A stretch of DNA of 64,000 nucleotides, from the NCBI GenBank assembly GCA_965285935.1, contig OZ260667.1, positions 5,952,001 to 6,016,000 of the forward strand, written 5' to 3'. Every line of letters starts with the position of its first letter. Position 1 is the first letter of the stretch. Origin of the DNA: Ophelia neglecta (lineage: Eukaryota). Under the pieces are notes generated by a model that was not told where the DNA came from, ran no database searches, and saw nothing but the letters and a program-made list of their open reading frames with translations. A program made the translations under genes and the position numbers. This document shows, in pieces, positions 33,101 through 57,795 of this stretch.

Positions 33101-34490
33101 GTTGGTCTGATTAAGGAGATGGCATGTGTAGACAGGTATTTTAACATTGACAGTGTATTTATGGAATTCATATAAGTGACCTAAAGTGATAGGTGGTCTG
33201 AATATAGAGGTGGTCTTTAACCTGAGCGTGCACCAAATTTTACTTTTTTCTGAGGGCAATCTCGGTAGAATTTAAGGGCAACACCCAATGGAGTGTAAAA
33301 TACCCCCCCCCCCAACCCCCCCCCCCACAACGACCACACAACGACCACACAACCCCCCACCATAACCACTACTGTCGGGCGTTGATGAATTATCACCAGG
33401 GCAAACTTTTGTTAATTTAAGTAGTATGCAAGCCATTATTTACCCTAGCAGCCAACGAGGAGGTTGGATCTTCTAGAAATATCCACAAGTCTTCGCGCAG
33501 CTTGGTGCATCCGGTTTGTGTGCGCAAAGCACGCTGGTATTCCAACAAATGTTGTTTGTAGCCGTTGAAGCTGGATTCTAGAATCTGGAGCATCTTCTGT
33601 TCTTCCTCGTACTCTGTGAATGTTTTCCAACAACAGGGGGCGATACAGTCTTCGGGAATAGCCCAGAATTCCATTTCCTTCTTTAGAAGTGGGCCGCACA
33701 GTGAATGGGGGAAGTGCAGCTCCCCCGTGCGGTAGAAATCCAAAATATAACCAAACAGTTTTGGGTTTCTATCGAAAAAATATTCACCAGAGTAAGGGTC
33801 GTAGGAAGGGTCGCTTTTTGTGAGCATGCTCAGCCTCGTTCCGGGCGGCTTGGACAAGGTCGTGGCAAAGGTCACAAAGCGCTCTCCACCGACCCTGATG
33901 ACGATTTTGTCTGGCGTCATGCTGGTCCCCGACCTGACATCTAGTGACGTCTTCTTGTCAATAGTGCGTATACCAGGTGTATCGTGGACAATCGCACCTA
34001 ATTTTTCCTTCACAATGCTTAGCTCTTTAGCTTCTACCAAATTGTCCGAGTCTGCGTCTGAATGCATATAATTGTCTTGCTTTTCCCTCAACGTTTTGGG
34101 TGTTGCCAAGTTGTCTCGGTTCTCTATCTCGCCTCTGGGGTCTGATTCCCGCCCCTTGGTACATGCCGACGGTAGTGACCCATGTTCTGGCTCCTCATGG
34201 TCCCTATGGCGCTTCCCGCCGGGATATTGCTCGATGCTTCTGTCCCTGGGCGGTGTGCAGTAGCCGGTACTTGGGATACATTGTCTTACGCCAGCCGGTC
34301 GATAGACATTCTCGTCAGGTACAATCCAGGTAGATAAGGGACATTGCTTGTCTGACATTGCCTTAACCTGTCTCCCGTACTCTGAATATGGCGCTTCGTC
34401 AGGTTTAGGCAAATCGATGTCGGGACCCAGTATTCCGGCTTGGGGGCGTCCGCTGTTGGATCCTCCGGATGTTGGTCCCGTCTGTGCCAT
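24153..34490 (-). CDS. Shaw: Shaw/Kv3-family voltage-gated K+ channel subunit (2 coding exons, ~628 aa)
   Basis: Exon 34490-33444 has a long N-terminus and T1 (IVIRVGGERF..YFFDRNP..ILDFYRTGELHFPHSLCGP..EMEFWAIPEDCIAPCCW..LWIFLEDPTSSLAAR). It splices in phase 0 (GT at 33443, AG at 24994-24993) to exon 24992-24153, which has S2 FFSLELCVRF, S3 NIIDLF, four-charge S4 RSVRILKVAKH, pore WWSIVTMTTVGYGDMTP and S6 GLPIPVIANSF. The symbol is family-level only. Confidence 0.92.
25512..26339 (+). mobile_element. Non-autonomous Helentron/Helitron-derived element (HINE/DINE-1/pearl-like architecture) in the Shaw intron
   Basis: 5' subTIR ttatatccgcgaa with adjacent short inverted copy gcggatat, (GCC)n microsatellite, internal tandem ~158-bp core repeats (25623, 25781), 3' subTIR ttcgcggatata, stem-loop ctgtcgg-cccc-ccaacag, terminal ctag-ttt. 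Confidence 0.8.
30770..31430. repeat. AT-rich minisatellite, ~36-bp unit (ataacccatacttactggtataaactcaactgagat) with a higher-order duplication
   Basis: 36-nt periodicity; the block at 30841 recurs at 31221. Confidence 0.9.
32307..32508. mobile_element. MITE with ~40-bp TIRs and internal telomere-like taaccc motifs
   Basis: ccggtgtcacatgcacaaagttccgccatgcagaaagtt ... aactttctgcgtggcggacctttttgcatgcgacactgg; internal taacccttaccctaaccc. Confidence 0.7.
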
Positions 34491-34799
34491 GTTGAGGCGC
34501 GCCAGTCTTGCCAAATAACCTGACACCGACCCGACAACTTATACACCGCTCTATTTACTCTTGGGGTAATGCAATGCGTTTGTAAACAAAGCAATGCGCG
34601 CTGTCTAGGCTTCCGGCATTGAGATATGAACATGGCTTTTACTAATTATTGATAACTGAGGCTGTTTTTTCGTTCAGCAAGTCATTGAGATATTAACCCG
34701 GTAAAATCCATTGTAAGTAAACACCAACCGACAACTCTGCTCACAGTGTTTTACCTCCGTCTAAGTTTGACAGGAAATAAAAGAGGGTGAAATCACCAG

Positions 34800-35145
34800 T
34801 AGCTAAGGGGGCCGGGAGCGGGGGGGCTCATGCCAAGAAGCCTTACCCTAATAGTAAATGGGGGGGGGGGGGGGAGGGTCACCGGGTTATATAAGCACTT
34901 TAGGGATAGGGAGGGGGGGGGGAGCTAGGGGGGGGGAGCTCATGCCAAGAAGCCTAACCTGCTAATAAATGGGGGGGGGGGAGAGTCACGTGGTTATAGA
35001 AGCACTTTAGGGATAGGGAGGGGGGAGGTAGGGGGTGGGGGCTCATGCCAAGAAGCCTAACCTTAATAATAAATTCGGGGGGGTGGGAGGGTCACGGGGT
35101 TATATAGGCCCTTAGGGATAGGGAGGGAAGGGGGGGGGGGGGGCG
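34800..35145. repeat. Three ~110-bp G-rich tandem units upstream of the Shaw start codon
   Basis: gctcatgccaagaagcc...G-run...gtcac..gttata..ttagggatagggaggg repeated three times. Confidence 0.85.
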
Positions 35146-35359
35146 AGGAAACAAATCTTTTTTTTTTGCTTCCAGAACCTGCTCAAAATAGCGTTTAATG
35201 CATGACTGTTAAGGAAGGGGGATCCCTCTCAAATGGCGGCATTTGTGGGTTTAGTTATCAGAGCTCGCCCTATCGCCGGGAGGGCACACTCATCTCCCAC
35301 CCAGTACAACCGACAAGGCTAAGAGCAAAGTACCCACACTCTTTTCGTTTCAGCCTCGG

Positions 35360-35790
35360 CAGCCATCTGGTCCATACCCCTGCCATCTGGTACACACACC
35401 ATGTCCCTGGCCATCCCGAAATCAGTCCCGCAACCATTTGTACCAAACCCATGCATCTGGTACACACCATGTCCCTGGCAATACCGAGATCAGCCATCTG
35501 GTCCATACCCCTGCCATCTGGTACACACCATGTCCCTGGCAATACCGAGATCAGCCATCAGGTCCATACCCCTGCCATCTGGTACACACCATGTCCCTGG
35601 CAATACCGAGATCAGCCATCAGGTCCATACCCCTGCCATCTGGTACACACCATGTCCCTGGCAATACCGAGATCAGCCATCTGGTCCATACCCCTGCCAT
35701 CTGGTACACACAGCATGTCCCTGGCCATCCCGAAATCAGTCCCGCAATCATTTGTACCAAACCCATGCATCTGGTACACACACATGTCCC
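35360..35790. repeat. Minisatellite, ~61-bp unit (cagccatctggtccatacccctgccatctggtacacaccatgtccctggcaataccgagat)
   Basis: Units start at 35491, 35552 and 35613, with variant units on either side. Confidence 0.92.
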
Positions 35791-36894
35791 TGCTCACTAC
35801 GAAATTAGTCTCGACGGCCATTTGTTGCGTCTTATAACTGTGAGTATCGCTGATTGGCTCGCATTTCAGATTCCAAAAGCTCTTTGTTAAACACTTCTCT
35901 TAACTTGTATTTAGCGAGTTTTGCTCATTTGCGTTACAGATTTAATGGTTTGAGCAGCGGAGGAGCAGATGTGAATCCAAGCTAGTGGGATAACGGCATA
36001 ACACCCATCTCGTGTTTATACTGCAGCATGATAACGGGCTCCAACCATCGCAGCAAACTAGCGCCAATATATTCATCACAGTTGCTTCGTTGCGATGGCA
36101 ACAACTGACGCTGAGACAGCATTAAGTCGAGTAATTTCACGCATGGTTAAATTGTGCAATAATACAGTAACTAGCTTTATTCCGCGCATACTAAAGCTAC
36201 CCCATGCTTATTATAACTTCCGACCCTCGTATCCAAGTCGAGCGCACCCTGATCATTATTGTCACTTGCGTGCACTTAAATTGTGGTCATTGAAATTGAA
36301 ATATAGCCTGTGGACCCACTGAAGGGTAAATAAAGTACCGAGAGATCCTCTTGAAGCCTGGCAGGGTACATATGATCTATTATTATTATATAAGCTATCA
36401 TTGATATCCAGCGTCGGCCATTGTCCTCGGCCAAGGTCATTGTACGGACGCCTTTTGTCATAGGCGCCGAAATTGTTGACTGCCTCGGAGTCGTAAAAAC
36501 TGTGTTTTTCATTTACCCAAGCAGTTGAAGCAGTGTTATTGGATCACATTGGTAAAAGTAGAATAATTTCCGGAACATACTGCCTTCGTGGCAATATTGC
36601 GCAGGAATATTTCAAGCGAATGTCACACGAACAGAATTCTTGCGCCTTAACTGTTCTTTATCGACATTGTCTGGAAAGACCGTCCGTTTTGATTTAATGT
36701 TTTTCATAACCTGGAGAGGCACTCATATATTTTGATGGAAGCAAAGTCTCACATATAAATGCTTTTGCTATCATGTCTAGGAATGACAGGTTTTAGGGAA
36801 TGTCGGTTATTTAGCGCTGTGGTTAATTTCGACAAGGAGAGAGTTTTAAACCCGGCAGAAAGTGGGCTTCTCACCCCGTGTTAATCATCAGCAT

Positions 36895-37100
36895 AATGTG
36901 ACTGGTTTTTCGGGGGTAGTGTCAGGACTGGTCAACCCGGTGTCAGTATAATGTGTCTGGGTGGGGTTCCCTGTCTGGTGTCTACGGCAGGTACTCCAGT
37001 GAGGCAGCACTCTAAAGAGGGCATTGAGCCCACTGTCACAAGTAGGCTTCGTGGCTATATTACCATATAAGAAAACCACATCAATCCCATACAAAAAAAA
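36895..37100 (+). mobile_element. SINE fragment, same family as 19622-19790
   Basis: gtcaggactggtcaacccggtgtcagtataatgtg..gtgaggcagcactctaaagagggcattgagccc..cacaagtaggc followed by an A-rich tail. Confidence 0.65.
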
Positions 37101-37609
37101 ACAACACTCCCAGTGTTAAACAGGTATCTGTACAGGTTTTCTTGCTATCTTCATGATCGGTCTTGAAGTCAGTATACCTATACCGAGAGGAGGTTAGGAG
37201 GGTTCCCGTTCCCAGTTTGAAAAATGGGCAAATCCCGAATCACGGATTTTTTAAAGTTTGCAATTTTCATTGGGGGTAAGGTATTCCCCGCTTCCCGATA
37301 AATTGAAATAGTAATTCCCTAGTCACGGGAAATTAAACAGAACATTCTCAGGTCACAGTAAATGAAATTACTTGATCCCGAATCACAGACAAGGAAGTTG
37401 CTTGATTGTGGCCAAAACTGGTAAAGGTGTGAGGCTGTTACATGATGATAGGCCGAAAGGCATACGACTTTACAAGCTAATTAGAGGTGGTTCCCGGTAT
37501 TGTAAGTCTACCTATCTAAGTCGGGGGCACACTGGGCTGGAAACCAGTCCAAAAAAGGAATGGATACCAATCTTAGAAACGCCATTTCTTGCCCTACTAA
37601 TATGGGAGT

Positions 37610-37835
37610 AGTTGCGCCCCGAAATGTAACCTGCCCCGAAATGTAACCAGTTACACTTGGGGGGCTGGTTACATTTCGGGGTTCAATAGTGCTGCCCCTA
37701 AATGTAACTAACCCCGAAATGTAACCGGTTACGTTTCGGGTTGATGGCTACCTTTGGAGGCAGCACTACTGAACTCCGAAACGTGTAAATGTAACTGGTT
37801 ACAATTCGTGGCAGGCTACATTTCGGGGCCCAACA
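37610..37835. mobile_element. Foldback/MITE built from ccccgaaatgtaacc sub-repeats
   Basis: gttgcgccccgaaatgtaacctgcc...ggcaggctacatttcggggcccaac inverted ends with nested internal palindromes. Confidence 0.75.
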
Positions 37836-38635
37836 ACCCGAATTTACCACTAAGCTTGGGTTGAAAATTATCCATTGAAAACTAGAACGAAGAATAGGTT
37901 TTAGTTTTATTCAAGCATGTAACATGATACATATGCTAATTAACGTTAGTCAGGGGGAGCCGTGTGGTGCCCTCGTGGTAGTCAGGGGCAGCCGTGTGGT
38001 GCCCGCCGTGGTTGTCAGGGGCAGCCATGTGGTGCCTTCGTGGTACAAGTTTAAATCAAATTGGCTAGTAACAATAAATTATTATGACTATAGGCTAGGT
38101 TTTTCTGAAATGCCGTTTATGTTAATAATAAATAATATGATAGCCAGGGTAGCACAAGATAACCAGGAATGTGACGTCAGCAGCTCGATCCAATCAGGAC
38201 CCGCTTTCTGGAAGCCGTGTTTATCCCCCTATGCCCTATAATTTGCCTATGAGTAGTTAGTTAAGACCGATAAAGCGCTTTAATCCTGATTTAATCCTAG
38301 TTGTGAGTTAAGACCGCTTCGAGAAACTGGGCCCAGGACATTGTTTATAGCAGGCGGGATGTGAGATATCTCAATGAAAGAAGGACAAGATATGTGTAAA
38401 TATACACCCATAAATATGCGTTCAGAAACCGGGATGGAATTCGAAAGTTAGGATTCTTTAGTTTGTTTTTATATCGAAAATAATTTCTTCACGGTCCCAT
38501 TCTACCTGGGGCTAGTTGTTAAATAATTCTTAGATTTTACTTGAACTTTGATTCCATAGTTTAAGTCTGATAAAAGACTTGCTCAAGTCAAAAAATGCCA
38601 AGTCCAAGTCGAAAGGTTTTACTTCAAATCAAGAA

Positions 38636-38818
38636 TACAGTGAATCTTGTGTTCATGGTCACCTGTATAATAAGGTCACCTGTCCACTAAGGGCATTAAA
38701 TAACAGACCAATCCCCATTTATGCCTGTGTTAACTGACCTGTCTATTGAGGTCACCTACATGATGTGGTCAGTTTTTTCCAGTCCCTTGACTGACCTAGT
38801 TAGACAGGTTTCACTGTA
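38636..38818. mobile_element. Tc1/mariner-pogo type MITE, family B copy, just 3' of the IPT-gene stop codon
   Basis: tacagtgaa...gtttcactgta; homologous to 16633-16810. Confidence 0.75.
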
Positions 38819-38877
38819 TATTAACAAGCGTCCCATGGTGACTCCATGGGTTGTCCCTATCCCGGTTAAAGTGAGGG

Positions 38878-41800
38878 TTAAAGGTCACTACTATCCCAAT
38901 TGGCGTCACGGTCCCAGTCGTCCTCACGACTCCATGGGCTGTCATTGTACCGGTCATATCCCCGATCACGGTTCCAGGGGTCGTGTCTTTCTCGGTCAAA
39001 ATCGCTAATCGGTCTAGTTTCCCGCCGATTTTTGGGTATGGAGGGAAGGGCGTCTCTGTAATCCCGACCGTGTCTGTGGTCTGGATACTCTCTAGGGTCA
39101 CGGGAATCCCGGTCGTACCCGTCGTCACTCCGGTCGTACCGGCCATCCCTGTGACCCCCCGGACTCCGACCGTCCCTGGAGTCCCAGCCAGCCCTTGGGT
39201 TGTCACTATATCCTCTTGGCCCGCTGCCATTAAGAGGAGGCGGGTAGTAGGTATCTCTATTGGTACCGCGGACGCCCTGTCCTCTCCCAATGATTTGTGA
39301 CTGCTTTGGATCACTGCGCTGGCGTCTTGCACATGCGCATAGGATGACTGACAGTAGAACGAGCAGCACCGTGGCCACAACAATACCAATGATAAGTTGG
39401 ACCTCTATCTCCTCGTCTTCGGGGAAGTGCACCACGCCAATCTCGTGGATCTGACTGTAACCCACCTGAACCTGAAAAGTATTATCCAAAAATTAATGTG
39501 TATGTATTATTATTACAGTGAAAACTGTGAATTAAGACCACCTAAAGGTAGTCTGTTTACACAGGTTATGTTACATTGAAAATATATACTAAGACCTTCA
39601 TATTGGTGGTCTGTATTGGCAGATGGTCTTAATACAGAGGTAGTCTTTAAGGCAGGTTTCACTGTATTATTATTACAGGGTACCTTTGAATTAAGACACC
39701 TAAGGCACATGTCCGAAGACAAAGGTGGTCTGCTAAGACAGGTTATTTTACATTAAAAGTGTAAACTATGCCATTCCCAATAATGACTTGAATTGACAGG
39801 TGGCCTTAATACACAGGCATATTTTCTGTTATACGATAACAAGCTCATTCACAATTAGAGAACCAAAGGTGTATATTTCAAAGGCTGACGATTTCTTGAT
39901 TATAAATTTTTACTGAATTAAAGGATTACTCCTGTATATTGATTTTGCTCTGTCTGCCGGGAATCAACTCCCGTTTGTCCATAAAGTATTCCCCAGTTGT
40001 AAATTTCCTTTACCTGCTTATCACAAGCGAGGCGACAATAATTTAGTATAATAATTAATCAAAGTCGTCACTGACTTGTTGTGTAAATTTAACAAATTCA
40101 ATGGTCGCATTTACACACTTGAATAAACAGTGCGTGATGATAAATAGCATTTAACTCAACTAATGCTATACTTTCCTCTCTAATTTCGTGATATTAACTG
40201 GTATCTAAAGTTCACAAACACCAATACCTATGGTACTGGCGACAGTGCTAAACTAAAACTCAGCATGTGCATACCAGTAAGTTGTAGTTGTGATCCTCCA
40301 GGTGTCGCTCTGTTTCAAGGGCAGATGGTGGCGTCTGTGGTGTTAGACAGAGAAGCTGATTGGATGCCAGCTCTGTGACGTTGCAATGACCTTGACCGAT
40401 GGTCACTATGTAGTCGTCCATTCCACATCCTCGGTCCATGTTATTGCCCTTAAATGAGAAAACATTAAACGAGTAAGGAAATTAGTTTCCACATTTGGCA
40501 GCATACTTATCAAGTAAAACATGTATTGCAATTAAAAAGTTACTCTCTGAAAATATTTATCAATTCATGGCAAGTATTGCACTGACAGTACAATCATATA
40601 GCGTATTGTATACTACTATCAACAGTACACGCCTATGGTGTATTGAAATACTATAATTTGATTTCGTTCTTCTCACAGAAGTAAAACTTAGTCTTTTTTT
40701 CGCCAAAGGACTGAATAAATCTATTATTAACCAGGGCCCGGTTTCTTGAAGCAGTCTTATGACTTGAGAACGGAACTATCTTCGTCGCTTGCAATTAAAG
40801 ACTTAGTACCTAACGCCTTCTCAAACACTGACTTACGGGTTCTGCTAGTATAGGGCAGGTTACTGTAGTAGTATGTGTATAGTCAGTACCATATTCTAGC
40901 ATTTTCTCAGACTGGTACTTGCAAGTATTATGCTCCGTATAGTATAGGGCATCTAGTAACATGTTACTGTAGTAGTATGGTTATAGTAAGAAGCATGTGC
41001 TAGCCTTTTATCAAACTGGTATTTGTAAGTATTAGACTCCGTTTAGATATATAAATACAAAGTAATATGAAAGCCTGAAGCACCGACCTCTATGGACAGA
41101 TATTCCGTGGGCCCGATAGTCTTTACGCCTTCCCATGATTCAAAATCTGGATCCGGATATACTAGGAGCTGTCCGTATTCTGGTAACACCGCTGGCAGAT
41201 TGATGTAGGTCGGAACTCCGTCCAGAACGAGGCCTATATAGTAGTCGTAGTCGTCCAGGCTGTCCTTCGTGACGTAGGCGGAAATAGCCGGCGTCTTACA
41301 AATCATCTTGTCAGAACGAACGCTGTCCTTGTCACATGGCTGAGGAAAAGTACCATCTATGTATTTACATAATGAACAAGAAACCAGAATTAATATTAAG
41401 GGAAAACACTCTTACACAGCGTATTGGGCGAATTCTCGCTTAATTTTATTCAGCAAGTGAAACTGCCTGATTCACATTGTGCTTGAGGCTACATTCTGCG
41501 CGAATTTAAGCGATGCGTGAAATTACCCTCATATAGGCCAATAAATAGATCCTCAATCTACTTATAATAGTATTGTCTTTGAAATCTTAATGGTGGGCGC
41601 GGTTCTATAGAACTGACTATAGACTATTCACCAACATGAATTGAGGTATTGTTAGTTCATTGAATTATAAAGAGCATCTTGGTGTAAGCAGAGCTTGTAC
41701 TCGTTTACCACATTAGTAAAATGTTACAGTTTGTATACCAAGGGTTATTATAGTCTCTTACTCAATCAACCCCTTGGACTACTTACATTGACGAGGGAGA

Positions 41801-44800
41801 CCTCCGCTGCCGAGCTCTGCCCCGCCTTTGGAGACAGGTTGACGCGGAGACTGGGGTCCGCCACGGAGTCCAGGTACTGGCCCTCTACCGTCAGCCTAGT
41901 GCCACCACTGGAAATATTAAAATAGAGGTGTATCTATGGCAATCGGACCTCTGCCTGGCCACAACATTAAGCATGCATACCTGATATAGGTCAACTTTAT
42001 TCGCAATCATGCAAAAGTTAAGTTATATGTCGAAACAAAAATGCTTAGCAACCATATCAGGCAAAGGCACAAATGAAAAATTATAAAGAATAAGTTATAG
42101 TTATTGTTTCGCCTGATCAGAAATATGTTTTTCGTGTTTGCCTGTGTGGGAGAACAAGGAAAGGAGCAAGGAAAGGGGGCGTGGAGGAGTTTGTGGGGTG
42201 TAGCAAGGGGGGTGAGGTGTATAGGGGGTGGGGAGGGAGGGGGCCTTGTAATTGCCGGATAGCAAGTGAGACAATGGTGTTGCTTTACCTGAGTGTGGTT
42301 TCCAAGGGGTAGATTTTGGTAATATTTGGGTCCGGAGTGTAGGTGAATGTGTATGGCGTGTTCAGGGTACATCCGTTGGTAAAGACAAACATAACGGCAT
42401 ACACCACATACACGGAAATCTCGGCAGCCGGCAATGTGTATACTACTACCCCGTCCGACGTCCTGAGGAGTAAAAACGGGAAATGATTAAAACTTTTGAA
42501 TCTACTTTTTTTTTGCTCCGAAGGGACTAAACATAATTTAGTAAATTGAACCTGCCGTAAGCGTTGAACTAAGCCCAAGTATATAGACAAGGTTGTCCCC
42601 AGATTGAAGTGTAAAGTTATCCTTTACCCAGGGAACGAAATATGCAAGTACTTTGGGACCAGCGGACATAACAAATCAGAATTTCTAGACCTGATCCTTA
42701 ATACACTAGAATTTCTAGACCGGCGTACTTCAAATACTGGTATTTCAGGAACGGGGGTGGGGGGGGGGGAGCAAATTTTCCAAGGCTGACAAGGCCAATG
42801 TCTGGACTGTCCCCGTTATCATCCCTCTGAAACCACCTTGCGTGGGTCCAGAAATAGGGCCTGGTCGAGGCAAAGGTGGTGGCGGGTCCCCTGCCCCCCC
42901 CCCTCTGAATTCGCCACTGCTTGACTTGTTCCTAAGAATCTTTTAACAATCCACCTAAGTTTAATTTGTAGTCAGAACTTCAAGTCAAAGTCTGAAACTA
43001 TGGAGAAATATTTCAAGTCCGAGTCTAAGAATATTTTACCAACCGGCCCGGCCGTATTATGAACGCTTCCATGCCTATACAATAAGCGGTCGCTCCATGA
43101 ATGCACGACTCTAAGAAGTTAATGTTACTGATTACTGTCCGGTTGACCGCCATGATATAAATCATAAAAGCCGGGGCTATAAGATTCGCAAAATTAATTA
43201 ACACCTGACCGTTTATTTCAGCTAATACGGCGTGTCCCGCTTTGCAATGAATATGTAGCAGAATTTTCGGAACACTCGGTCTCGAAGTAGCACGTTTAGA
43301 TATTAGTTTCAAATTCCGAATTATCAGATGATGGTGTTGATTTAATTATAATGGCGAGATAGATTCAATTATATCAGTAAATAAATATATGTTGTCAGAA
43401 ATACCAACCAGTTGAACTGTACGATATTGTATGGCCCGTATTGTATGGAGGCCAGCTGGTCCTCGGACACTCCAGACAGCCTGGCGGTCAGTTTAGACCC
43501 GCCCGACATCGGCCCTTTGGACAAAGACACATCGCTTACTGAAATCAAGCAACATCTTATAATAACCCAATGATATCAGAGGAAATAAACCACTCAGTAC
43601 TCTTATAAACATGTCTGCAGCGAACCTCTTGATGTACCATATAGTTCCCTTCAGAATTATCAATAATCGGTGTGTATAAATGTTACCGCTTCACAATTAA
43701 TGAACTATTGCATAAATTACTAATGAAAGGTAGGAAGTTACCTGTTGGCACACAGTAAACACCAGATTCATCGCTAGGGGGCGCTTGAATAGAAAAAATA
43801 TAGTTCGAGTCATCTCAACACCGCAATGTATATTGTGTCGGGAATAATGAAATACAGTTTATACAATGGCATTGGTTAACAAAATATGGTCACAGCAGGC
43901 TCGCGGGATTGTGGGGAAACTTGAAGGGTAGGGGCCATCTTGGAGCGTAAGGGGATAATTTGGTGGTAGGGGACAACTTGGGGGGGGGGGTCAACTCAGG
44001 GGTAGGGGAAACCCTGAGGATAGGGTGACACCTTTGGCAATGGTGGAAAAGTTTGTGTTTTTTTTTTGGACAAGTTGGGGAATAGGGGACAACTTGATCA
44101 AGTCCTACCTGCTCGTTTACGTCTACGTCGTCTCAAGGGTGGATAGGCCTCTGTCGTTGTGTAGTCCGATGTCGTATCATTTGTGGTCGTCCAGTATTCT
44201 GTATTACCACCAGGGGACGGCGTACTCATTATCATTGAATTAAAGCAGTTTGAAGAAACTAAAAAGAAAATTTAAAATATTTATTTGTTTTCCATTATTC
44301 GAGATTTATCTCGAATCATCGTATGTCATTAGTACAGAGAATATATGTTTACGAGACTTTTTGTGCTGATGTTTTTCAGGATTTGATCATTTTTATCCTA
44401 TATTTCGATCATTTGATTTTACTTTAATGTGCTGGTGCTCTTCTTCTTGTTGAGCTAAATATGAGCTACAAATTTTGCCTTTGATTAGTGGATTGAATGG
44501 ATTTTCTCCCGATGTTTGTGAACTCTGAAAAGGTCGTCGCCTTAGAAAATGTTGTCGAATTCAGTACCAAACATGTCACACTTTTTTGATGCGATTAAAC
44601 TTTTTGCTTACCACATCTTCCTAAAAGGTTTTACCAAACTTACGTTTGGGGGGGGGGGGGGGGCAGTTCCTTTGATTTAGATTTGAGATTTCACCTTCGT
44701 TACTCTGTATTTACTGACTTTTCATGCTTACTCTCGTTCTGTGATATCCACCATCCTCCCCCCATTGAGATTGGCTGTGTTGCTTTATATGGTCATGCCA

Positions 44801-47379
44801 ATGCGTCAATTGTACCCGATAAGGGGTCGACCAATTGAACATATCCGACCCAAGGCATCACATTGATTTGTTTTTAGTTCAGATGTGGGAATCACTTCAT
44901 ATGCTGCGAAGATGGAAAGGGCCAGGAGGTATTAGATAGCGTCCTAAAGATAGACTTTTAAGTAATAGAATCATTTTCAGTGGTGCTGCCCACTTCCATT
45001 ACTGTGGTCAAACAGTTATAAAGAACCTTCGCAAAATGATCATTTATCAAGCCATGGCCTAAATGTATAATTCTGCTAGTATGCCGCTTGTAAAATAACT
45101 ATCAGAATAATCTGATGGATTCCTTACTTAGCTGAGGGTCATATAAACAGAACTGCTGTTATAGCTATCCCCCCCCCCCCCCTCTTCATTTATTAATGTC
45201 ATGATATGGAGTGCCCCCCCCCCCCTCCACCACACCATCTATCAGACTACCATCGCTACTCGCAATTTATCACTACGCTATGGGAGCAGAGCAAGCAGTG
45301 AGGCACAGGATGTGTGGATGTGTGGTTAAACCACAAAATCCTTCCCTTACATTACTGTGGCTGCTATGATGCTATGGGAGCAGACCAGGCAGTAAAGGCA
45401 CAGGATGTGTGGATGTGTGGTTAAACCACAAAATCCTTCCCTTACATTACTGTGGCTGCTATGATGCTATGGGAGCAGACCAGGCAGTAAAGGCACAGGA
45501 TGTGTGGATGTGTGGTTAAACCACAAAATCCTTCCCTTACATTACTGTGGCTGCTATAATGCTATGGGAGCAGACCAGGCAGTAAAGGCACAGGATGTGT
45601 GGATGTGTGGTTGAACCACAAAATCCTTCCCTTACATTACTGTGGCTGCTATAATGCTATGGGAGCAGACCAGGCAGTAGAGGCCCCGGATGTGTGGATT
45701 TGTGGTTAATATACCCAACTTAAAGACTCTAAATAGCCAACATGGTTCGTTTGTGGGGTTAAACCACCAAAATATCCATCCCTAGCGTTACTGTGGCTGC
45801 TGGTTCCTAATGATTTCGGACCAATTTAATGGACTCTCCATGACTAATGCATTGGCTTTGTCTGTCGGGTCTCCACTGCGGGTTTCTCTATAGCAATTTC
45901 CCCACAGCAAAATGTCTTGAAAATGTAATATGGAAATATGGTTAGCAAAGTTTTCCTTCTCACGACAATAATGGGGCCGGTTTCTAGCATGGGTATGAAC
46001 TCTTAACTGGGATTATAATCAGGATTAATCGTTCTTAACTGGCTAATCGGTGCTTCTGGAAGCTGGATTTGGTCTATACCCTAGCCATCCATTTTGATCT
46101 TGCAGTCTCAGCCTATTGGAATAAGGCTATCTTATCGCTTTTTGTTCTAGAAACCGGGCCCAATAGGTTATGTGGGGTGAGGTAGAGTATAATGTATATA
46201 ACTGAAGTAGGCCTACCTTCTCTCTTCCGCCGAACATTGATACCAGTTGTTGTTGTGTCTTCATCTGTTGTTGTGTTTTCAGCTGTTGTTGTTGTGTTTT
46301 CAGCTGTTGTTGTGTTTTCAGCTGTTGTTGTGTTTTCAGCTGTTGTTGTGTTTTCAGCTGTTGTTGTTGTGTCTTCAGCTGTTGTTGTGGGGATATCGGC
46401 CGTTGTATTTTCGCCTGCTGTTGTTCCATTGTCGGCTGTTGTTGTGTTTTCAGCTGCTGTGGTGGTGTCAGGATGCACGGTGGTGGTGGTTGTGGGGTCT
46501 GGACACGACAGCAAGTATCCTGGCTGAGCTGAAGAAAACATATTCGATTATATTTCATTTTTATTTTGGTAAATTCGCTTAGAGCATTCAGGATATTATA
46601 TGAAGGGATTATGAGCGTGTACATATATTGTGGGTTAAATAACTGGCTATGCGGCCTATGCCAGAGGTTAAAATTAAACCAATGTACTACAGCTCCAGCT
46701 TCGAGAGACATAGGGCTAAACCGCATCCGTGACCTTGTGAGGACAAGCCATAGACAGCCCGCCGAATCGCAAACATTTAGGTGTAAACATATAAACAAAA
46801 GAGGTATTCAAATCGCTGAAATGCAAATACCACTAAAAAGCAAAACATTTCTTATAAAATAAAGTCACTGAAATACTTATAATGAACTTATCATCCGTTA
46901 CAAATTTGACGTCAGTACAATACAAACCAATACATAAATTAAACATTCACTAAAATAATAACCATTCACTAAAATAAACATTAACTAAAATACAAACCAT
47001 TCACTAAAATAAACATTCACTAAAATACAAACCATTCACTAAAATAAACATTCACTAAAATACAAACCATTCACTAAAATATAAACTATTCACTAATTCA
47101 CTAAAATAAAAACCATTCACTAATTCACCGAAATAAAAACCATTCCCTAAAATACAAAACAATCACTAAAATAGCAGGCCGTCACTAAAATACAAACCAA
47201 TCAGTCAAGCAATTACTAAAATTCATACTAATCACTAAAATACAAAACACTAAGTTACTAAAATACAAAAAAAAATCACCCAAATACAAACCATTATCCG
47301 TCAGTGTAAAAGCTGATATCATTGGAATTAAGATGAATATTCCGATGACCACGGTAGGCACTAAGGCTCGCATACGCAT
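38878..47379 (-). CDS. Type I membrane glycoprotein: signal peptide, two Thr-rich (mucin-like) furin-ended modules, three plexin/MET-type IPT/TIG domains, TM helix, Arg/Asp-rich cytoplasmic tail (9 exons, ~664 aa)
   Basis: Exons 47379-47292, 46528-46217, 44258-44109, 43538-43409, 42462-42289, 41907-41787, 41339-41088, 40448-40275 and 39471-38878 are all GT-AG with matching phases (1,1,1,2,2,0,0,0) and give 1995 nt open. IPT hallmarks: SKGPMSGGSKLT, FTYTPDPNITKIYP..SGGTRLTVEGQYLDSV, MICKTP, IGLVLDGV, VYPDP, IEGNNM..VTIGQGHCNVTELASNQLLCLTP. TM: LIIGIVVATVLLVLLSVILCAC-ARRQR. Confidence 0.85.
39514..39666. mobile_element. Tc1/mariner-pogo type MITE, family C copy (last intron of the IPT gene)
   Basis: tacagtgaaaactg...caggtttcactgta; followed by a second degenerate copy to ~39830. 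Confidence 0.75.
42745..42919. mobile_element. MITE family A, 5'-truncated copy (intronic)
   Basis: Same core; ends ctgaattcgccactg. Confidence 0.7.
45277..45800. repeat. Tandem repeat, 95-bp unit, ~5 copies (intron)
   Basis: gctatgggagcag starts at 45277, 45371, 45466, 45561 and 45656. Confidence 0.93.
46935..47290. repeat. A-rich minisatellite (~16-20-bp aaccattcactaaaata units), intronic
   Basis: Repeated attcactaaaata motif running up to the splice donor. Confidence 0.85.
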
Positions 47380-48117
47380 GATCAGCGTTGAGTTGTATCT
47401 GAAAATACAGAGAGGCCACAATATGACTAACCTAAATCTAGGATTCGGGAATGTCTTATTGGGGTATGATTATGGGATTTGGACTACATTCGTCATCCTG
47501 TGACAGGAAGAAACTGCTTTTAGCATTCGATAACACAAGAAGTATGCTGCCTAGTAGCCTATAAGGGTTTGTAGGCTGTAAACATAGCCCATCCCAGCCC
47601 CCAAACCTAGTAATTCCCACTGACACCTCTGATAAATATACCAAGTTTGTTGAACATGATTTTTTCATGACACGTAGATAACTGTATAATTGGTCACTTG
47701 TTCCAAATTAAAAGACTGATATGGCAGTCCTGTTTTCTCCCGATAGATCTCATTTGTAGGGCCATGCGATTTTGATTTGTTAGATCAAAACGTTGCCTCA
47801 TTTTGTTTTGGGAAAAGAGCCATAAAAAACATCAAAATGAAAAAAAAATCAATTGTTTATTTTTCCAAATATTTTATGTCAGCAAATAGTATACTGGTCT
47901 TACATTGTCATCTTGCTACACCTACCAGGATGATATGGGTATGTGCAGGGAAGTTAAAATATTTGTCCTAAGGGTGATTTTTACCCTCAGGCTGTTTAAG
48001 CAGGAATGCTAGATATTCGACACCTGGGGATCACTTGATCTATTTGAAAGAAACATCATCCTGTCTTTAAAGTCATTTTTTGTATCATATTTCACTTACA
48101 TTTTACATGAAAACTAT

Positions 48118-49197
48118 CCAAAACAACATGTAAAACAACATGTAAAACAACACGTAAAACAACATAAAAACAAGACTTAAACAACATGTAAAACAACACG
48201 TAAAACAACATAAAAACAAGACTTAAACAACATGTAAAACAACACGTAAAACAACATAAAAACAAGACTTAAACAACATGTAAAAGAACATGTAAAACAA
48301 CATAAAAACAAGACTTAAAGAACATGAAAAACAACACGTAAAACAACATAAAAACAAGACTTAAACAACATGTAAAAAAACATGTAAAACAACATAAAAC
48401 AAGACTTAAAGAACATGAAAAACAACATGTAAAACAACATAAAAACAACATGTAAATCAACATAAAAACAACATGTAAAACAACATGTAAAACAACATGT
48501 AAAACAACATGTAAAAAAAACATGTAAAACAACATAAAAACAAGACTTAAAGAACATGAAAAACAACACGTAAAACAACATAAAAACAAGACTTAAACAA
48601 CATGTAAAACAACACGTAAAACAACATAAAAACAAGACTTAAACAACATGTAAAAAAAACATGTAAAACAACATAAAAACAAGACTTAAAGAACATGAAA
48701 AACAACACGTAAAACAACATAAAAACAAGACTTAAACAACATGTAAAAAAACATGTAAAACAACATAAAACAAGACTTAAAGAACATGAAAAACAACATG
48801 AAAAACAACATAAAAACAACATGTAAATCAACATAAAAACAACATGTAAAACAACATGTAAAACAACATGTAAAACAACATGTAAAACAACATGTAAAAC
48901 AACATGTAAAACAACATGTAAAACAACATAAAAACATGTAAAACAACATAAAAACAACATGTAAAACAACATGGAAAACAACATGTAAAACAACATGGAA
49001 AACAACATGGAAAACAACATGTATAACAACATGTAAAACAACATGAAAAACAACATAAAAACAACATGTAAAACAACATGTTAAACAACATGTAAAACAA
49101 CATAAAAACAACATGAAAAACAACATGTAAAACAACATAAAAACAACATGAAAAACAACACGTAAAACAACATAAAAACAAGACTTAAACAACATGC
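48118..49197. repeat. Simple satellite, 12-bp unit (aaaacaacatgt) with variants
   Basis: 12-nt periodicity; explains the stop-free CCFT/VLHV/LFYM ORFs. Confidence 0.97.
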
Positions 49198-49339
49198 TAA
49201 ATAATTTATATACAAATCTAGAGTCTATTTTATTTTTCATGTTTCAAGCCTCATTTTGATTTTGGGAAAAATACTCAACCAATAAAAATTGTACGTCCCA
49301 AATGGTTTCTCCATAGCCTTTATTATTGCCTCGAGGGCA

Positions 49340-51105
49340 GGGTTTTCTTGCCTATAGGACAAGGTTTTCTTGTCTAAAGGACAAGGTTTTTTGCCTATAG
49401 AATAATGTATTCTTTACTATAGGACAAGATTTTCCTTTGCAATACTACAAGGTTTTTGTCAAGGTTTATATACCTATAGGACATCGTTTTCTTTGCTATA
49501 GGACAAGGTTTTCTCGCCTATATAACAAGGTTTTCTTTCCTATAAGTAAAGGTTTTTTTCGAGGTTTTTTAGCCTATATTACAAGGTTTTCTTTCCTATA
49601 AGACAAGGTTTTCTTTCCTATAGGACGAAGCTTTCTTTCCTATAGAACAAGGACAAGGTTTTCTTGCATATAGGACACGGATTTTTGCCTTTAGAACAAG
49701 GCTTTCTTTCCTATAAACAAGGTTTTCTTTCCTATTAGACAAGGTTATCCTCCCTATGGAAAAAGGCTTTCCTATAAGACATGGTTTTCTTTACTATAGG
49801 AGAAAGTTTTCTTTCCTATAGGTCAAGGTTTTCTTTCCTAAAGGGCAAGGTTTTTTGCTTATAGAACAAGGTTTTTTTCCTATAAGATAAGGTCTTCTTG
49901 CCCATAAAACAAAGTTTTCTTGTCTATAGGGATAAGGTTTCTTGCCTATTGGACAAGGTTTTATTTCCTATTGGACAAGGTTTCTTGACAAGGTTTTCTA
50001 TCTTATAGGACAAAGTCTTTTGCCTAAATAACAACGTATTCATTTCTATACAAAATGGTTTTCTTTCCTATAGAGCAAGGTTTCTTTCCTATAGGGCAAA
50101 GATTTGTTGCTTATAGAACAAGGTGTCTTTCCTATAAGACAAGGTTTTCTTGCCTATATAAAATGGTTTTCTTTCCTAAAGACAAGGCTTTTTCCAAGGT
50201 TTTTTGCCTATAGGAATAGGTTTTCTTTACTTAAGGACAAGGTTTTCTTTCCTATAGCACGAGGATACTTTTCCTATAGGACGAGGTTTCGTGTCTATAA
50301 GATAAGGTTTTCTTTCCTATAGAACATGGACAAGGTCTTCTTGCATATAGGTCAAGGATTTTTGCCTTTAGAACAAGGTTTTCTTTCCTATAAACAAGGT
50401 TTTCTTTCCTATTAGACAAGGTTACCTTCCCTATGGAAAAAGGCTTTCCTATAAGACATGGTTATCTTTACTATAGGTCAAGGTTTTCTATCCTAAAGGG
50501 CAAGGTTTATTGCCTAAAGAACAAGGTTTTTTTCCTATAAGACAAGGCCTTCTTGCCTATAAAACAAAGTTTTCTTTTCAATAGGACAAGGTTTCTTGCC
50601 TATATAACAAGGTTTTATTTCCTATAGGAAAAGGATTTTGGACAAGGTTTTCTATCTTATAGGACAAAGTTTTAAGAACAAGGTTTCCCTAACTACAAAA
50701 CAGTGTTTTCTTTCCTACAAAACAGGGTCTTCTTGTAGAACAAGCTTTTCTAGACCAGAAGATAAGGTTTTCTTTCCTATAGGACGAGCATTTCTTTCCT
50801 ATAACACGAGGTTTCTTGTCTATAAGACAAGGTTTTCTTGTCTATAGGACAAGGTTTATTTGCCTTTAGGGCAACGTTTTCTTTCCTAGAGGACCAGGTT
50901 TTTTGCCTATAGGACAAGGTTTCCTTATCTATAGGCCAAGGCTTTTTTCCCCTATAGGAAAATGTTTGCCTGTCTATAGAACAAGGTTTTCATTCCTATA
51001 GGAAAACGTTTCTTGCCTATAGGGCAAGGTTATCATGCCTATAGAACAAGGTTTTTCTTCCTATAAGACAAGGTCCTGCCTATAGGCCAAGGTTTTCTTT
51101 CCTAC
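49340..51105. repeat. Degenerate satellite, ~22-bp unit (ctataggacaaggttttctttc), with a larger segment duplicated
   Basis: Recurring unit; block ~49630-50020 recurs at ~50310-50670. Confidence 0.92.
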
Positions 51106-54100
51106 AGATTGGCAACCAGCCAGAAGCACATGAATGCAATGTTTACAGGGGCAATGACCCTGAGGTGAAACCTCGAGATCGCGCACGACTAGAGAGTCCA
51201 AATGCCAATTGTAGGTTATTCACTGATTTTCACAAGTGAGATTAAGAGGGAGATGGTAACACTGTATTGCTGACAATGACGGATGGAACCATTTCGGAGG
51301 TGCTGCCCTCTGTTGATGGGAACTTTCTCGGTGGTGCTGCCCACATTCATTGGTGTGATCTATCAGTTGAAAGAACGTACCCATACTCATGCATCACTAT
51401 GTAAAGTAGACCCTCGGCACAGTTGTGCATTGAATAAAATCTGATTGGAGTGAAGTGATTTTTATTTTTGCCACAAAAAACGCTACCACTTACAATAGTT
51501 TAAGTGCAGAATTTAAAGTATTAATGTAATGTAGAAAATTCTCTGTGGGAATATTGTGACAAGAAGGGAAATTGAAGTTCCATGGAACTTATTGTATCCA
51601 CCCAGATATAAAGTTCTAAGGCACTGATTACTTTAAATGTTTGAAATACTACAAAGTACCTATGCTATCAAAATGTAAGCAAAATCTATATATATATGGG
51701 AAGACATAATATTTGATAATCGAGTCAAACACCCAGCATTTAACATTTCAATTGATTAGGTGGTCCAGCCTGGTAAATATCGCTTGCCCCTTTTTTATAA
51801 CACTACAGTTACTAGTTTAAATTAATGGAACAGGCCCACCTTTTTCAAAGCTCTTAGGAGTCGGCAGCTTTCCCAGGCGAGACAAGTAGTCAGGCCATCT
51901 CAGGCGGAACTGGTGATGCATTGAGAGTCATCAGAGCGGCCACATGTGTATAGCGGTGTGTCATGAATGGTTGTGTGTGTGTGGGTTGACTTGATATAAG
52001 TATTATGACCCGAGGACAGATCCAACGGGAGGGAATTTATGGGGGTAGTTGAAAACAGTGGATGATAGTTAGGGTATTAGACAGCTGTCATATAGGGCCT
52101 ACTCTTTTTCTACTTTCCTCTCTGAGTAATGGCTTTCTATACAAGAGCGTAACTAGGGAGGTTCAGGAGGTTCGTCCGTACCCCCCTTTGTCAGTTGACT
52201 TAATTTAAGTTTTCAAAAATATATTATTCTACAGTTCGAACTGGAACATGTAAGAACCACCACAAGAAAAACCCGTGTTGATCCATTTCATTTCGCGCTG
52301 AGGTGACCCCCTTCCCTTTGTTGAAAGCTGGGAACGCCTCTGCTTTACTCGTGGTTGAAGGGGGAGGGGGGGGGGGGGAGAGGTGTGGACCGTATTTCCT
52401 TCCAACCCACAAATCGTTCAATTCCCTGAACCTCCAACACCTCACCTCTCATTCTCCCCTCCATCCTCTCTTGCCCATTTTCCAACTCCCCTTCTCACCC
52501 CGATTCCCACATCTCCAATTCTCCCTCCCTCATCCCCACGCCAATTTTCCTCATCTCCCCCTAACTATTTCCCCCTCCCCCGAGATTTTTCCTCCCCCAG
52601 GATTAGGTTCCCCGCTATACCTGCGGATTTCCACTCCCCCAAAAAATGATTCCTATATAAAGATAAGCCTCCCCCCCTCCCCCCCCCCCCCCCCAGAATT
52701 GGCCTCCCCTCTTTCCCGGGATTGGTCCTGCCGAGGCCATCCACACCAGGAAGTTATATCCACAGTTTTTCCCTCCCATCATATGGACCACAGCCAAGTG
52801 TGTGGCCACTGACCTGAAACTCACGTTCTCTCCCTCAAAAACTACCCAACGCATCTATTAACAACAATATATCATGGTTTCTACGTACTAAACGATGTTT
52901 TCTATCATTAAACACTTTAAATCAACCCTACTTTTCAATATACACAGAGATTCATAGATAACAAATTGAAAGATACTCACTTTGTTGATGTCATTTGAAT
53001 TAAAGCAGGAAGCAGGAGGTGTCAGGTATGGGATGATCCTGGTAGCTTATCCTATTGGCTATGTTTCCTGAGACAGGCGTGTCTGAGACCATCGCTATAA
53101 GCCCAACGTTATCTCATATTGTCCAAGTGATGGTGATATAAAGTAAAAATCTATACTAAAATGCTAGCCTCCGCCCTTAAAGTGACCTATATGAATACAA
53201 CAGGAACTAAAATGATTATTAGTGTTCGGGTTTACCACGGTGACGGAATAACTCCAATCTGACAAAATCCAAGATGATTCATTAACCATTCAGTAGAATA
53301 AATGTTTCCTAAAGCTCCCGATTAGTACACAATGGTGTATAATGTGCTTGTTAACCTGGGACACGCTTACATCTTATGAGGCCTTCTCCGGAGGATGGTT
53401 GACTTGTATTGAATGTGACATCAAGGCACCATGGGAGCCAGGGGTAGGACACGGGGTCAGCGCCCCCTAGGTGTACGGGAGCGGGTTTAGCCCCCTTTGG
53501 GAACACGGGTCAGAACCGTTAGGTGGGGGGAGGGGTAGGGTCATGGGGTTAGACGGGGGACACCGGGTCAGAAACCCCTAGGGGGGGGGGGGCATAGGTC
53601 ACTCTAGGGAGACACTGGGGCCAGGGCCTCTTAACGGGGACGATAAGGGCAAGGGTCATTTAAAAGGAAGTCATCTAGAGGGACTCGAGGCTTAGGCAGA
53701 CATGATCCCGTAAGGGAAAGGACCCCCTAGAGGGAAACATAAAGGTTGGGAGGGGGTCATAACCTCTGATGGGAACAATGGGGTCAGGATCCACCAGGGT
53801 TTGCGGGATGGGCGGGCGGGAGGGGGGGGGGGTCAGCAGAGATGGGGGGGGGGGCCAGGACCCTTCATTGGAGTTTCACCTGGGTCATGAACTCCTAGGG
53901 TAGAGAAGGGCCATGACCCCCATTGAGGTCCCCCGTTTGTACGTGTAGGAGAGATCCCCCCTCCCATATATGTTTAAATAGGTGTTCGATGTCAGCACAG
54001 CCAGCCGCCTGTGAAATGGGTGTAGTGCTATATTGTACAGCCTTTGTTTCGTTATACATGGCCCTATTGATGCATGCAGCGTTTTGTAAGAAAAAAAATG

Positions 54101-55604
54101 GCAGGGAAGTTGTTTATTTTATCAATAGATAAAGTTCCATAGAGGTAGTGAAAGGGGAGGGTGGGAGGAGACAGTTTCTCTTACCCCCCTCTCCTAGATT
54201 TATTACCTGTTGTTTTCCTGCTATCACATCTGCGCCTTTGTAGTATATATGGTGTTTAAGGACATGCTTCAGTCAATTTCCGTGCGCCGGCTACAAGTGG
54301 AATAGCTGTGGGCATACGTTAGGAGGAATGGTTCCTTAAGAATGCCGACTATGGCATATAGTGTCTGTATCAACATGTATGGAAATGCCTGTGTCATTTG
54401 TCAATATTTTAGGAAAAGGATTTTTTTTCGAAATGAAAATATCTTTCATCGTTATGTAAGAACATGTAAGTGCCTGCTATCGATTTTTTTTCTAAATTGA
54501 TTGTGTCGTGTGTTAACAAAGCCCCGTAGCTAACTTCCGAAGGAGGGGTTCAATTTCTGAGAAAGGGTTGTGTCGCAAGTGCCCAAGCATGCTATGGCGT
54601 CCCGGAGGGGGGGGGGGAGGTGCGCGGACTAAGGCCTGACCTAGGACTATAGACGCAATTATTGCATTAATAGGCCTACTCTGTTGGTCTATAGCAGTAC
54701 AAATTCTGCACAGTTGGTATACCCGTATATATGCCTTTACATGTCCTGGCAGGCAACCTCGGCGGCATCAACATGTTTCCAGATAAGGGGTGGTTTCAAA
54801 TCATGTTGTGAACTAGTAAGGTTGTAGGAACATTTTGCGTCGTGTAAAGGTCATAGGCCTAATTTATATCGCCATCATTGGCCCGCCTATGGTCCTCGTC
54901 CTCGCGAACCAGAAGGGCGGCCATTTTAAAATTCACTTTATCAATAAACAATGCCCAGGTTCCAGGGACGTAATTAAAATACTGGTATCTTACATGTTGA
55001 ATCGCGTGCCTTGCTGGTGGTTTTCAACTATTCACGATATTTTGCATGCTTAGCTGTTGTGTGTTTGTGAAAGATAATAGTTCAGGCAACATCATATCAA
55101 ATAGTTAGCATAGCGTTAGTTGTCAAATGTTTTTCTATGTTGCATGAAGAAATGATCCTTTGTCATCTGTTTATGTCCATGTGGGTACCGGTCTCCTAAA
55201 ATGGCCCACTCAGAGAGTATGACATGTCTTTGCCATTGCCACCATTATGCGTCTTTGTATAATCCCTAAATAATAAGAACTTATATCTATTTAATAAATA
55301 ATACATATTCCAGCATGCTATATTCCAGCATACTATGCTAGGCTAGCTTTTTTGGCCAATCAAAGGCCAGATAGTCAGATATTTTTTTAACCACAGAAAT
55401 TCGACCAGTCTCTATAACATTACCTTTATTGACTACATCTCATTGTTGTGCGATTTCCTTGTTCAGCGATTACGTTACCAAAGAATGATGTAGTTCAAAT
55501 AAACTACTTAAACCGGGAAATTTTGCAAGCTGAGATTTATGGGAATTGAAAAAATCAGAATATCCTGCTTGCGAAAAAATCCTATCTGCTCGTACCGTTC
55601 CTGG

Positions 55605-57375: not shown

Positions 57376-57795
57376 TGGATATTTGATGCATGTTTATGCC
57401 GGAGGAACCTCTCAAGGAAAGCATAGCCTAAATGTCTAACTGGCTCAAGCGGTCACTCTAACTAGGACTAATGTCACTCTATCTTGGTCAAAGAATATAC
57501 TTGAACAATAACACTACGCTGGATATTTGATGCATATTTATGCCGGAGGAACCTCTCAAGGAAAGCATAGCCTAAATGTCTAACTGGCTCAAGCGGTCAC
57601 TCTAACTAGGACTAATGTCACTCTATCTTGGTCAAAGAATATACTTGAACATTAACACTACGCTGGATATTTGATGCATGTTTATGCCGGAGGAACCTCT
57701 CAAGGAAAGCATAGCCTAAATGTCTAACTGGCTCAAGCGGTCACTCTAACTAGGACTAATGTCACTCTAACTTGGTCAAGGGATATACTTCAACA
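57376..57795. repeat. Three near-identical 144-bp tandem units downstream of the cGLR stop codon
   Basis: Units start at 57376, 57520 and 57664. Confidence 0.95.

What the first reader, a model, noticed from the sequence alone, without database searches (positions are those of the whole stretch)
38878..47379. Orphan receptor architecture: plexin/MET-type IPT stalk with no Sema head and no kinase or GAP, capped by furin-releasable mucin modules
Seen: a clean 9-exon ORF reading SP, Thr-rich module 1, RRKR, Thr-rich module 2, RRRRRKR, IPT x3, TM, then a ~155-aa low-complexity tail. Established: IPT domains with these signatures form the membrane-proximal stalk of plexins and MET/RON, which have an N-terminal Sema domain and a cytoplasmic GAP or kinase. 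Here neither can be seen. Inference: exon shuffling built a new surface protein, which could be a decoy or co-receptor, a shed-mucin sensor or an adhesion molecule. I do not recognise this architecture as a named family.
Basis: partly seen in the sequence, partly recalled or inferred. Interest (0 to 1): 0.75.

Follow-up and report, generated by a model that had tools for sequence, protein, structure and literature searches.

The report
Mucin-headed, kinase-less MET-type stalk protein
This animal gene keeps only the three-domain stalk and membrane anchor of a MET/plexin-type receptor, with threonine-rich segments (likely sugar-coated and clipped off by furin) in place of the ligand-binding head and no enzyme domain, and related genes put other heads and tails on the same stalk.

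Summary
The 9-exon, 664-aa minus-strand model was reproduced exactly, but it misses a 42-nt exon (43783-43742) that supplies the Cys-x-Pro start of IPT1; the better model has 10 coding exons and 678 aa. No Sema, kinase or GAP exon was found in introns or flanks; no RNA confirms the splicing. The stalk resembles plexin IPT4-6/MET IPT2-4. It shares 5 of 5 testable intron positions with a relative carrying a MET-like kinase (L002). The gene is not a lone orphan. An unnamed protein (P0022) also has a Thr-rich region followed by three IPTs (32% identity, 2e-56), three loci carry laminin N-terminal and EGF heads on this stalk, and one (L006) seems to end in a short kinase-free tail. Best reading: a membrane mucin derived from a MET/Met-LP-type receptor, likely furin-processed and non-catalytic. 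Nine paper searches found no description of this layout or of the laminin-headed form. Function is inferred, not shown.

The parts
47292..47379 (-). Coding exon 1: predicted signal peptide (aa 1-29). An acceptor at 47398 suggests an upstream, probably untranslated, exon.
   Evidence: signal peptide judged from hydropathy only
46217..46528 (-). Exon 2 (phase 1-1): one Cys, Thr-rich module 1 made of 18-bp repeats with 8 N-x-T sequons, ending in a furin-type site
44109..44258 (-). Exon 3 (phase 1-1): one Cys, Thr/Ser-rich module 2, ending in a long polybasic furin-type site
43742..43783 (-).
43409..43538 (-). Exon 4 (phase 1-2): first half of IPT1; weak acceptor
42289..42462 (-). Exon 5 (phase 2-2): second half of IPT1 (Cys272) and start of IPT2
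41787..41907 (-). Exon 6 (phase 2-0): IPT2 first part
41088..41339 (-). Exon 7 (phase 0-0): IPT2 second part and IPT3 start; carries the signature shared with 27 unnamed proteins, but lacks the basic loop insert many of them have
40275..40448 (-). Exon 8 (phase 0-0): IPT3 core, Pfam TIG 9.3e-5
38878..39471 (-). Exon 9: last IPT strand, TM helix (about aa 505-527), juxtamembrane Cys pair, 149-aa Arg/Asp-rich tail with 9 Tyr, stop
38811..38877 (-). Just past the stop: another tail-like repeat unit continues in the +1 frame to a stop at 38811, a possible trace of an older, longer C-terminus

Best explanation
The gene encodes a predicted single-pass membrane protein of 678 aa whose three IPT domains and membrane anchor likely descend from a MET/Met-LP-type receptor kinase gene, with a likely glycosylated Thr-rich head in place of Sema and a likely disordered tail in place of the kinase, and it most likely works as a furin-processed, non-catalytic membrane mucin. 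Steps: (1) Shown from sequence: the architecture, and intron positions shared with a kinase-bearing relative. (2) Inferred: Sema-PSI was replaced by phase 1-1 Thr-rich exons, and the kinase exons were lost while the TM exon ran on into a new tail. A weak phase-1 donor remains about where L002 splices to its cytoplasmic exons. (3) Inferred: the head is heavily N- and O-glycosylated and is cut by a proprotein convertase at the two polybasic sites; the two modules may stay linked to each other through their single Cys residues. (4) Inferred, weakest: the cell sheds the glycopeptides into its mucus or coat and keeps an IPT3-TM-tail stub, whose Tyr/Pro-rich tail is read by adaptors after phosphorylation by another kinase.
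For: Open 10-exon frame with strong sites on most junctions. P0022 joins a Thr-rich region to the same three IPTs in one ORF, 32% identical over 450 aa, and shares Cys272, which 0 of the 4 other relatives have. L002 = IPT-TM-Tyr kinase, its kinase exon matches MET best among PDB chains, with 5 of 5 testable intron phases shared and 34% stalk identity. No Pfam hit for Sema, PSI, kinase or plexin GAP in 76 of 76 flanking or intronic minus-strand frames of 38 aa or more; the same kind of scan found 2 kinase exons in L002. tblastn with L002 kinase and L001/L003 laminin exons found nothing in the window. Convertase-type sites are common in the family: 13 of 27 exon-7 relatives carry R-x-K/R-R. Convertase cleavage of Plexin-B and S/T-rich inserts in Plexin-B1 are described (PMC8011033, passages).
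Against: No RNA or protein evidence for splicing, cleavage or shedding. The tree of 7 stalk sequences is unresolved (0 of 4 inner branches starred; window and P0022 join as long branches), so MET versus plexin descent is not settled, and P0022 scores better against Plexin-A4 than against MET. P0022 has no signal peptide, TM or furin site and may be a fragment of a longer protein, so it does not prove a mucin at the N-terminus or a missing kinase. Exons 2 and 3 are not clearly duplicates (21 of 300 resamples score as high). Two phase-2 donors (score 7.0) lie inside the tail. The tail has no detected homolog, and its end may come from a recent frameshift.
Confidence: 0.5

Rival explanations
1. 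Decoy or co-receptor: once furin removes the mucin shield, the bare IPT stalk binds the ligand of a paralogous MET-type kinase or pairs with that kinase and damps or tunes its signal.
For: In human MET, IPT3-4 alone bind HGF with high affinity and soluble IPT antagonises HGF (PMC2475716, passages). The window's IPT2-3 correspond to that region by position, and kinase-bearing relatives exist (L002).
Against: Only 34% identity to L002's stalk, and L002 is not known to be from the same species. No ligand is known. Nothing here tests binding.
Confidence: 0.2
2. Uncleaved adhesion or glycocalyx protein: the mucin head stays attached and the IPT triplet is only a spacer, as in dystroglycan-like or Tgr-like adhesion proteins.
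For: Dense sequons next to the first basic site could block cleavage. P0022 has a similar region with no furin site. Dictyostelium Tgr proteins are non-enzymatic IPT-TM adhesion and recognition proteins (PMC3188802, passages).
Against: Both modules end in a consensus site, one of them with seven basic residues in a row, which is unlikely to be kept without use.
Confidence: 0.12
3. The model is incomplete: the real transcript has further 5' coding exons or 3' kinase/GAP exons and is an ordinary Met-LP or plexin with a mucin insert.
For: An acceptor upstream of the ATG with an open frame back to it; donors inside the tail; no RNA holder was available. Mispredicted architectures are a known problem (PMC4967905, search listing only).
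Against: No such exons in the 11 kb upstream, 4.3 kb downstream or anywhere else in the window by the tests run. The flanks are closed by a Mab-21 gene and Kv channel genes on the same strand. The tail looks coding (58% GC, mixed synonymous codons, open in 23 of 5000 resamples).
Confidence: 0.1
4. A decaying partial duplicate of a MET-type gene with little function.
For: Long branch (2.61), loss of the central Cys pair of IPT1 seen in L001/L004, and a possible recent frameshift at the C-terminus.
Against: Ten exons open without a stop, a matched signal peptide and TM, and 4 of 4 Cys of IPT2-3 conserved wherever the relatives are aligned.
Confidence: 0.08

Closest known systems
MET/RON receptor tyrosine kinases and invertebrate Met-LP (PMC6374515, passages)
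   Same: Membrane-proximal IPT triplet plus TM; 5 of 5 testable introns shared with L002, whose kinase is MET-like. That human MET exons 8-13 have the same layout is recalled, not tested.
   Different: No Sema, PSI or kinase; Thr-rich head; Arg/Asp-rich tail.
Plexins (Sema-PSI/IPT ring, IPT4-6, Ras-GAP)
   Same: The relative P0022 matches Plexin-A4 residues 920-1090 best (1e-18). Convertase cleavage and S/T-rich inserts occur in B-plexins (PMC8011033). The window's protein ends in Ser-Asp-Leu, like the VTDL PDZ motif of Plexin-B2 (PMC7846610, passages).
   Different: No Sema, PSI or GAP. The cleavage sites lie in front of the stalk, not within it. The PDZ-like end may be a by-product of a frameshift.
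Short-form RON and GAP-truncated sponge plexins
   Same: Natural receptors that lack one end (PMC9956929, passages; PMC6374515).
   Different: Each loses only one end; this gene has lost both and gained a new head.
Dystroglycan and Dictyostelium Tgr proteins (analogues only)
   Same: Furin site, mucin region, Ig-like domains, TM and non-enzymatic tail (PMC4582122, passages); IPT-TM adhesion proteins (PMC3188802).
   Different: No sequence relationship was seen or tested; their domain sets differ.
Unnamed relatives P0022, L001/L003/L004, L002, L006
   Same: Same IPT triplet signature, 23-35% identity.
   Different: Heads: Thr-rich, or laminin N-terminal plus laminin EGF. Tails: kinase, short tail, or unknown.

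Membership tests
MET/RON/Met-LP receptor kinases | N-terminal Sema + PSI | tested here: not met
   No room or candidate exons in introns; no Pfam hit in 76 of 76 flanking frames. RNA not available.
MET/RON/Met-LP receptor kinases | Tandem membrane-proximal IPT domains before a single TM | tested here: met
MET/RON/Met-LP receptor kinases | Cytoplasmic tyrosine kinase | tested here: not met
   the same scan finds kinase exons in L002
MET/RON/Met-LP receptor kinases | Descent from the MET lineage rather than from plexins | tested here: inconclusive
   Introns shared with L002, but the tree is unresolved and has no named outgroup; no plexin gene was available to compare introns
Plexins | Sema-PSI-IPT ring ectodomain | tested here: not met
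   Only three IPTs
Plexins | Cytoplasmic Ras-GAP/RBD | tested here: not met
   (no positive control for GAP exons was run)
Plexin-B | C-terminal PDZ-binding motif | tested here: inconclusive
   Ends in Ser-Asp-Leu, but a tail-like unit continues past the stop in another frame
Membrane-tethered mucins (functional class) | Thr/Ser-rich repeat ectodomain, TM and cytoplasmic tail | tested here: met
   the mucin part is short (about 125 aa in all)
Membrane-tethered mucins (functional class) | Actual glycosylation and cleavage or shedding | not testable with these tools
   Motifs only
Dictyostelium Tgr | Sequence kinship and polymorphic heterophilic binding | not tested
   Analogy from PMC3188802 passages only

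The most novel reading that the evidence does not exclude
The membrane-proximal IPT triplet plus TM of MET/plexin is a reusable chassis in invertebrates. An undescribed receptor group swaps heads (Sema-PSI, laminin N-terminal + EGF, furin-capped mucin) and tails (MET-like kinase, or non-catalytic) on it, and this gene is the member that lost both ends: a mucin-masked, protease-unmasked modulator of MET-type signalling.
Probability: 0.4. Interest if true: 0.7.

Novelty: new variant of a known kind. Interest (0 to 1): 0.52.

Why it matters
The published survey of plexins and METs built its tree on Sema plus PSI domains (PMC6374515, passages), so relatives without Sema would likely be missed. This gene and its relatives show the stalk surviving without Sema and carrying mucin or laminin-type heads. 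If that holds, the MET/plexin group in invertebrates is larger and more modular than described. It would also offer natural versions of the Sema-less and decoy receptors so far mostly engineered, and a test of what the IPT stalk does alone.

Tried and rejected
No genome is held for this window, so paralogs elsewhere could not be sought; within the window there is one copy. No RNA holder listed, which is no evidence on expression. Three contig-level runs of one sample were laid: they cover introns as well as exons, listed no joint at a predicted intron among the 15 shown of 300, and gave no usable exon SNP list. Word-based homolog searches with exon 7 (44 candidates), exon 8 (3 candidates) and P0022's stalk (2200 candidates, only itself passed) found nothing further. 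PDB searches with single exons or the exon-7 profile gave no significant hit. The Atlas returned only generic TIG clusters at low recognition. A single-sequence fold of P0022 failed (pLDDT 31.5) and was not used; the spliced window protein was not folded. Alignment A3 of separate exons was misaligned and discarded. The first metagenome scan confirmed 0 of 12 matches. The tree was unresolved. A duplication origin of exons 2 and 3 was not supported. The invertebrate Met-LP files that the supplement listing of PMC6374515 showed are empty and its PDF is too large, so direct comparison with named Met-LPs was not possible; it bears on the descent claim. Four look-ups in earlier scan findings returned nothing.
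Full report
Observation. The gene lies on the minus strand from 47379 to 38878. A scan for hidden in-phase exons found one strong candidate, 43783-43742 (acceptor 7.9, donor 8.9 on my approximate matrix), and only weak ones in introns 1 and 5. With it the protein is 678 aa: signal peptide, Thr-rich module 1 (48% Thr, 8 sequons), a furin-type site at 129-132, module 2, a polybasic site at 176-182, three IPT domains, TM and a 149-aa tail with 9 Tyr. The four head introns are all phase 1. An acceptor 19 nt before the ATG implies an upstream exon that I did not locate.

Are other domains hidden? The introns are 203-1958 nt and hold no candidate long exon. I scanned all 76 minus-strand stop-to-stop frames of 38 aa or more lying outside tandem repeats in 47400-58450, 44260-46200 and 34560-38900. 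Pfam found no Sema, PSI, kinase or GAP; 1 of 76 had a sub-threshold DUF hit. The same type of scan detected two kinase exons in L002, and those exons find nothing in the 64-kb window by tblastn. The neighbours on the same strand are a Mab-21 gene upstream and Kv channel genes downstream. No RNA run was listed, so the transcript is unverified.

What the stalk is. Exon 7 found 27 proteins among 1.84 billion representatives (E 4e-8 to 6e-4); the 10 looked up are all unnamed. Twenty-six are single-exon-sized fragments; 13 of the 27 carry an R-x-K/R-R site, in a loop that is short in the window's gene. One, P0022 (577 aa), has about 235 Thr-rich residues followed by three IPTs and aligns with the model at 32% over 450 aa (2e-56). 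P0022 matches Plexin-A4 920-1090 (1e-18) and MET (2.6e-9) in the PDB, which identifies the triplet as plexin IPT4-6/MET IPT2-4. It shares Cys194 and Cys272 with the window's protein; Cys272 is absent from the four other relatives aligned. It lacks a signal peptide, furin sites and TM and stops just where a TM would start, so it may be a fragment or a secreted form.

Relatives in genomic context. A metagenome scan confirmed 9 of 28 pattern matches. I scanned plus-strand frames of 40 aa or more of L001, L002 and L006 (114 of 114) and of L003 and L004 (150 of 152). L005, L007, L008 and L009 are 1-2 kb and were not scanned in full. L002 runs IPT-IPT-IPT-TM and then tyrosine-kinase exons whose best PDB match is MET; its head lies off the contig. 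L001, L003 and L004 carry Laminin_N and several laminin EGF repeats directly ahead of the triplet; L001 and L003 reach a TM before the contig ends. L006 has a TM exon running about 100 codons to a stop, with only 0.5 kb of contig left. None showed Sema or PSI. The window's stalk introns (phases 2, 2, 0, 0, 0) match L002 at 5 of 5 testable positions; the laminin-headed loci share them as far as each contig was checked, add one intron and start IPT1 at phase 0 rather than 1. Stalk identities to the window: P0022 35%, L002 34%, L004 30%, L001 29%, L006 23%. A tree of seven rows was unresolved.

The tail. It is 58% GC against 34% in the preceding intron, uses mixed synonymous codons, and stayed open in 23 of 5000 resamples, so it looks coding. 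A weak phase-1 donor (2.1) sits at 39267, about where L002 leaves its TM exon, which fits read-through after loss of downstream exons but does not show it. The protein ends in Ser-Asp-Leu, resembling the VTDL motif of Plexin-B2 (PMC7846610, passages). Against making much of that, another tail-like repeat unit continues past the stop in the +1 frame to 38811. Contigs from three runs of one sample cross this place without gaps, so it is probably not an assembly error, but the present end may be young.

How it most likely works. I favour (0.5) a non-catalytic membrane mucin derived from a MET/Met-LP-type kinase gene. It would be glycosylated, cut by a convertase at one or both basic sites, shed its head modules (possibly joined by their single cysteines) and leave an IPT-TM-tail stub that signals, if at all, through adaptors. 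The architecture and shared introns are shown; descent, cleavage, shedding and signalling are inferred. Rivals are a decoy or co-receptor for MET-type kinases (0.2; human IPT3-4 bind HGF alone, PMC2475716, passages), an uncleaved adhesion protein (0.12), an incomplete model (0.1) and a decaying duplicate (0.08).

Comparison with what is known. It fails membership of MET/RON/Met-LP (no Sema, no kinase) and of plexins (no Sema, no GAP), while keeping their stalk. Known truncations lose one end only: short-form RON (PMC9956929, passages) and sponge plexins with truncated cytoplasmic parts (PMC6374515, passages). S/T-rich inserts and convertase cleavage are known in B-plexins (PMC8011033, passages). 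Dystroglycan (PMC4582122, passages) and Tgr proteins (PMC3188802, passages) are analogues. Nine full-text searches, of which I read the listings and passages of seven papers, showed no description of a mucin-IPT3-TM protein or a laminin-headed IPT receptor. The library lacks most subscription papers, and automatic database names such as 'plexin-like' could not be checked.

Verdict. A real, intact-looking gene and a new variant of a known kind. One rearranged surface protein in an unknown invertebrate is of moderate interest. The evidence that the stalk is reused with several heads and tails is the stronger lead. Interest 0.52.

Noticed in passing
L001:1462-7456, L003:5483-11588, L004:684-9225: Genes with Laminin_N and several laminin EGF repeats fused to the MET/plexin-type IPT triplet, with a TM in L001 and L003. 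The cytoplasmic part lies beyond the contigs; possibly laminin/netrin-headed receptors. Not found in my paper searches.
   Followed up: partly
L002:492-5298: IPT triplet, TM and MET-like kinase exons; head not on the contig.
   Followed up: partly
L006:36-2166: IPT exons with a long basic insert and a TM exon running to a stop after about 100 codons; a possible second kinase-less member.
   Followed up: partly
window 58423-60993 (-): Intronless 856-codon frame with Mab-21 and Mab-21_C domains, likely a cGAS-like receptor (label recalled), with a 22-aa repeat near its start.
   Followed up: partly
window 33417-34538, 24153-25109, 17134-17496, 13465-14400 (-): Two tandem voltage-gated potassium channel genes (BTB_2 and Ion_trans hits); the second N-terminal exon looks diverged and has no Pfam hit.
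   Followed up: partly
window 221-652 (-): Fragment weakly matching organellar/viral DNA polymerase B (E 0.002); possibly a Polinton-type element remnant (label recalled).
   Followed up: partly
window 38811-38877 (-): Tail-like repeat unit continuing in the +1 frame past the stop.
   Followed up: partly
window 36808-37211, 38424-38827, 39500-40039, 42464-42867, 45696-46099: Very high-copy short elements, some palindromic, in the introns and flanks (summed contig depth up to 6e5); probably MITE-like repeats.
   Followed up: no
window 18074-18467, 21279-23609, 45277-45709, 48120-51108, 55608-56613: Several minisatellite arrays with periods of 22, 41, 95, 12/23/46, 22 and 40 bp.
   Followed up: no
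window 41675-42121: Two haplotype contigs differ at 42 letters and 5 gaps in 446 bases around exon 6, indicating a highly heterozygous animal.
   Followed up: no
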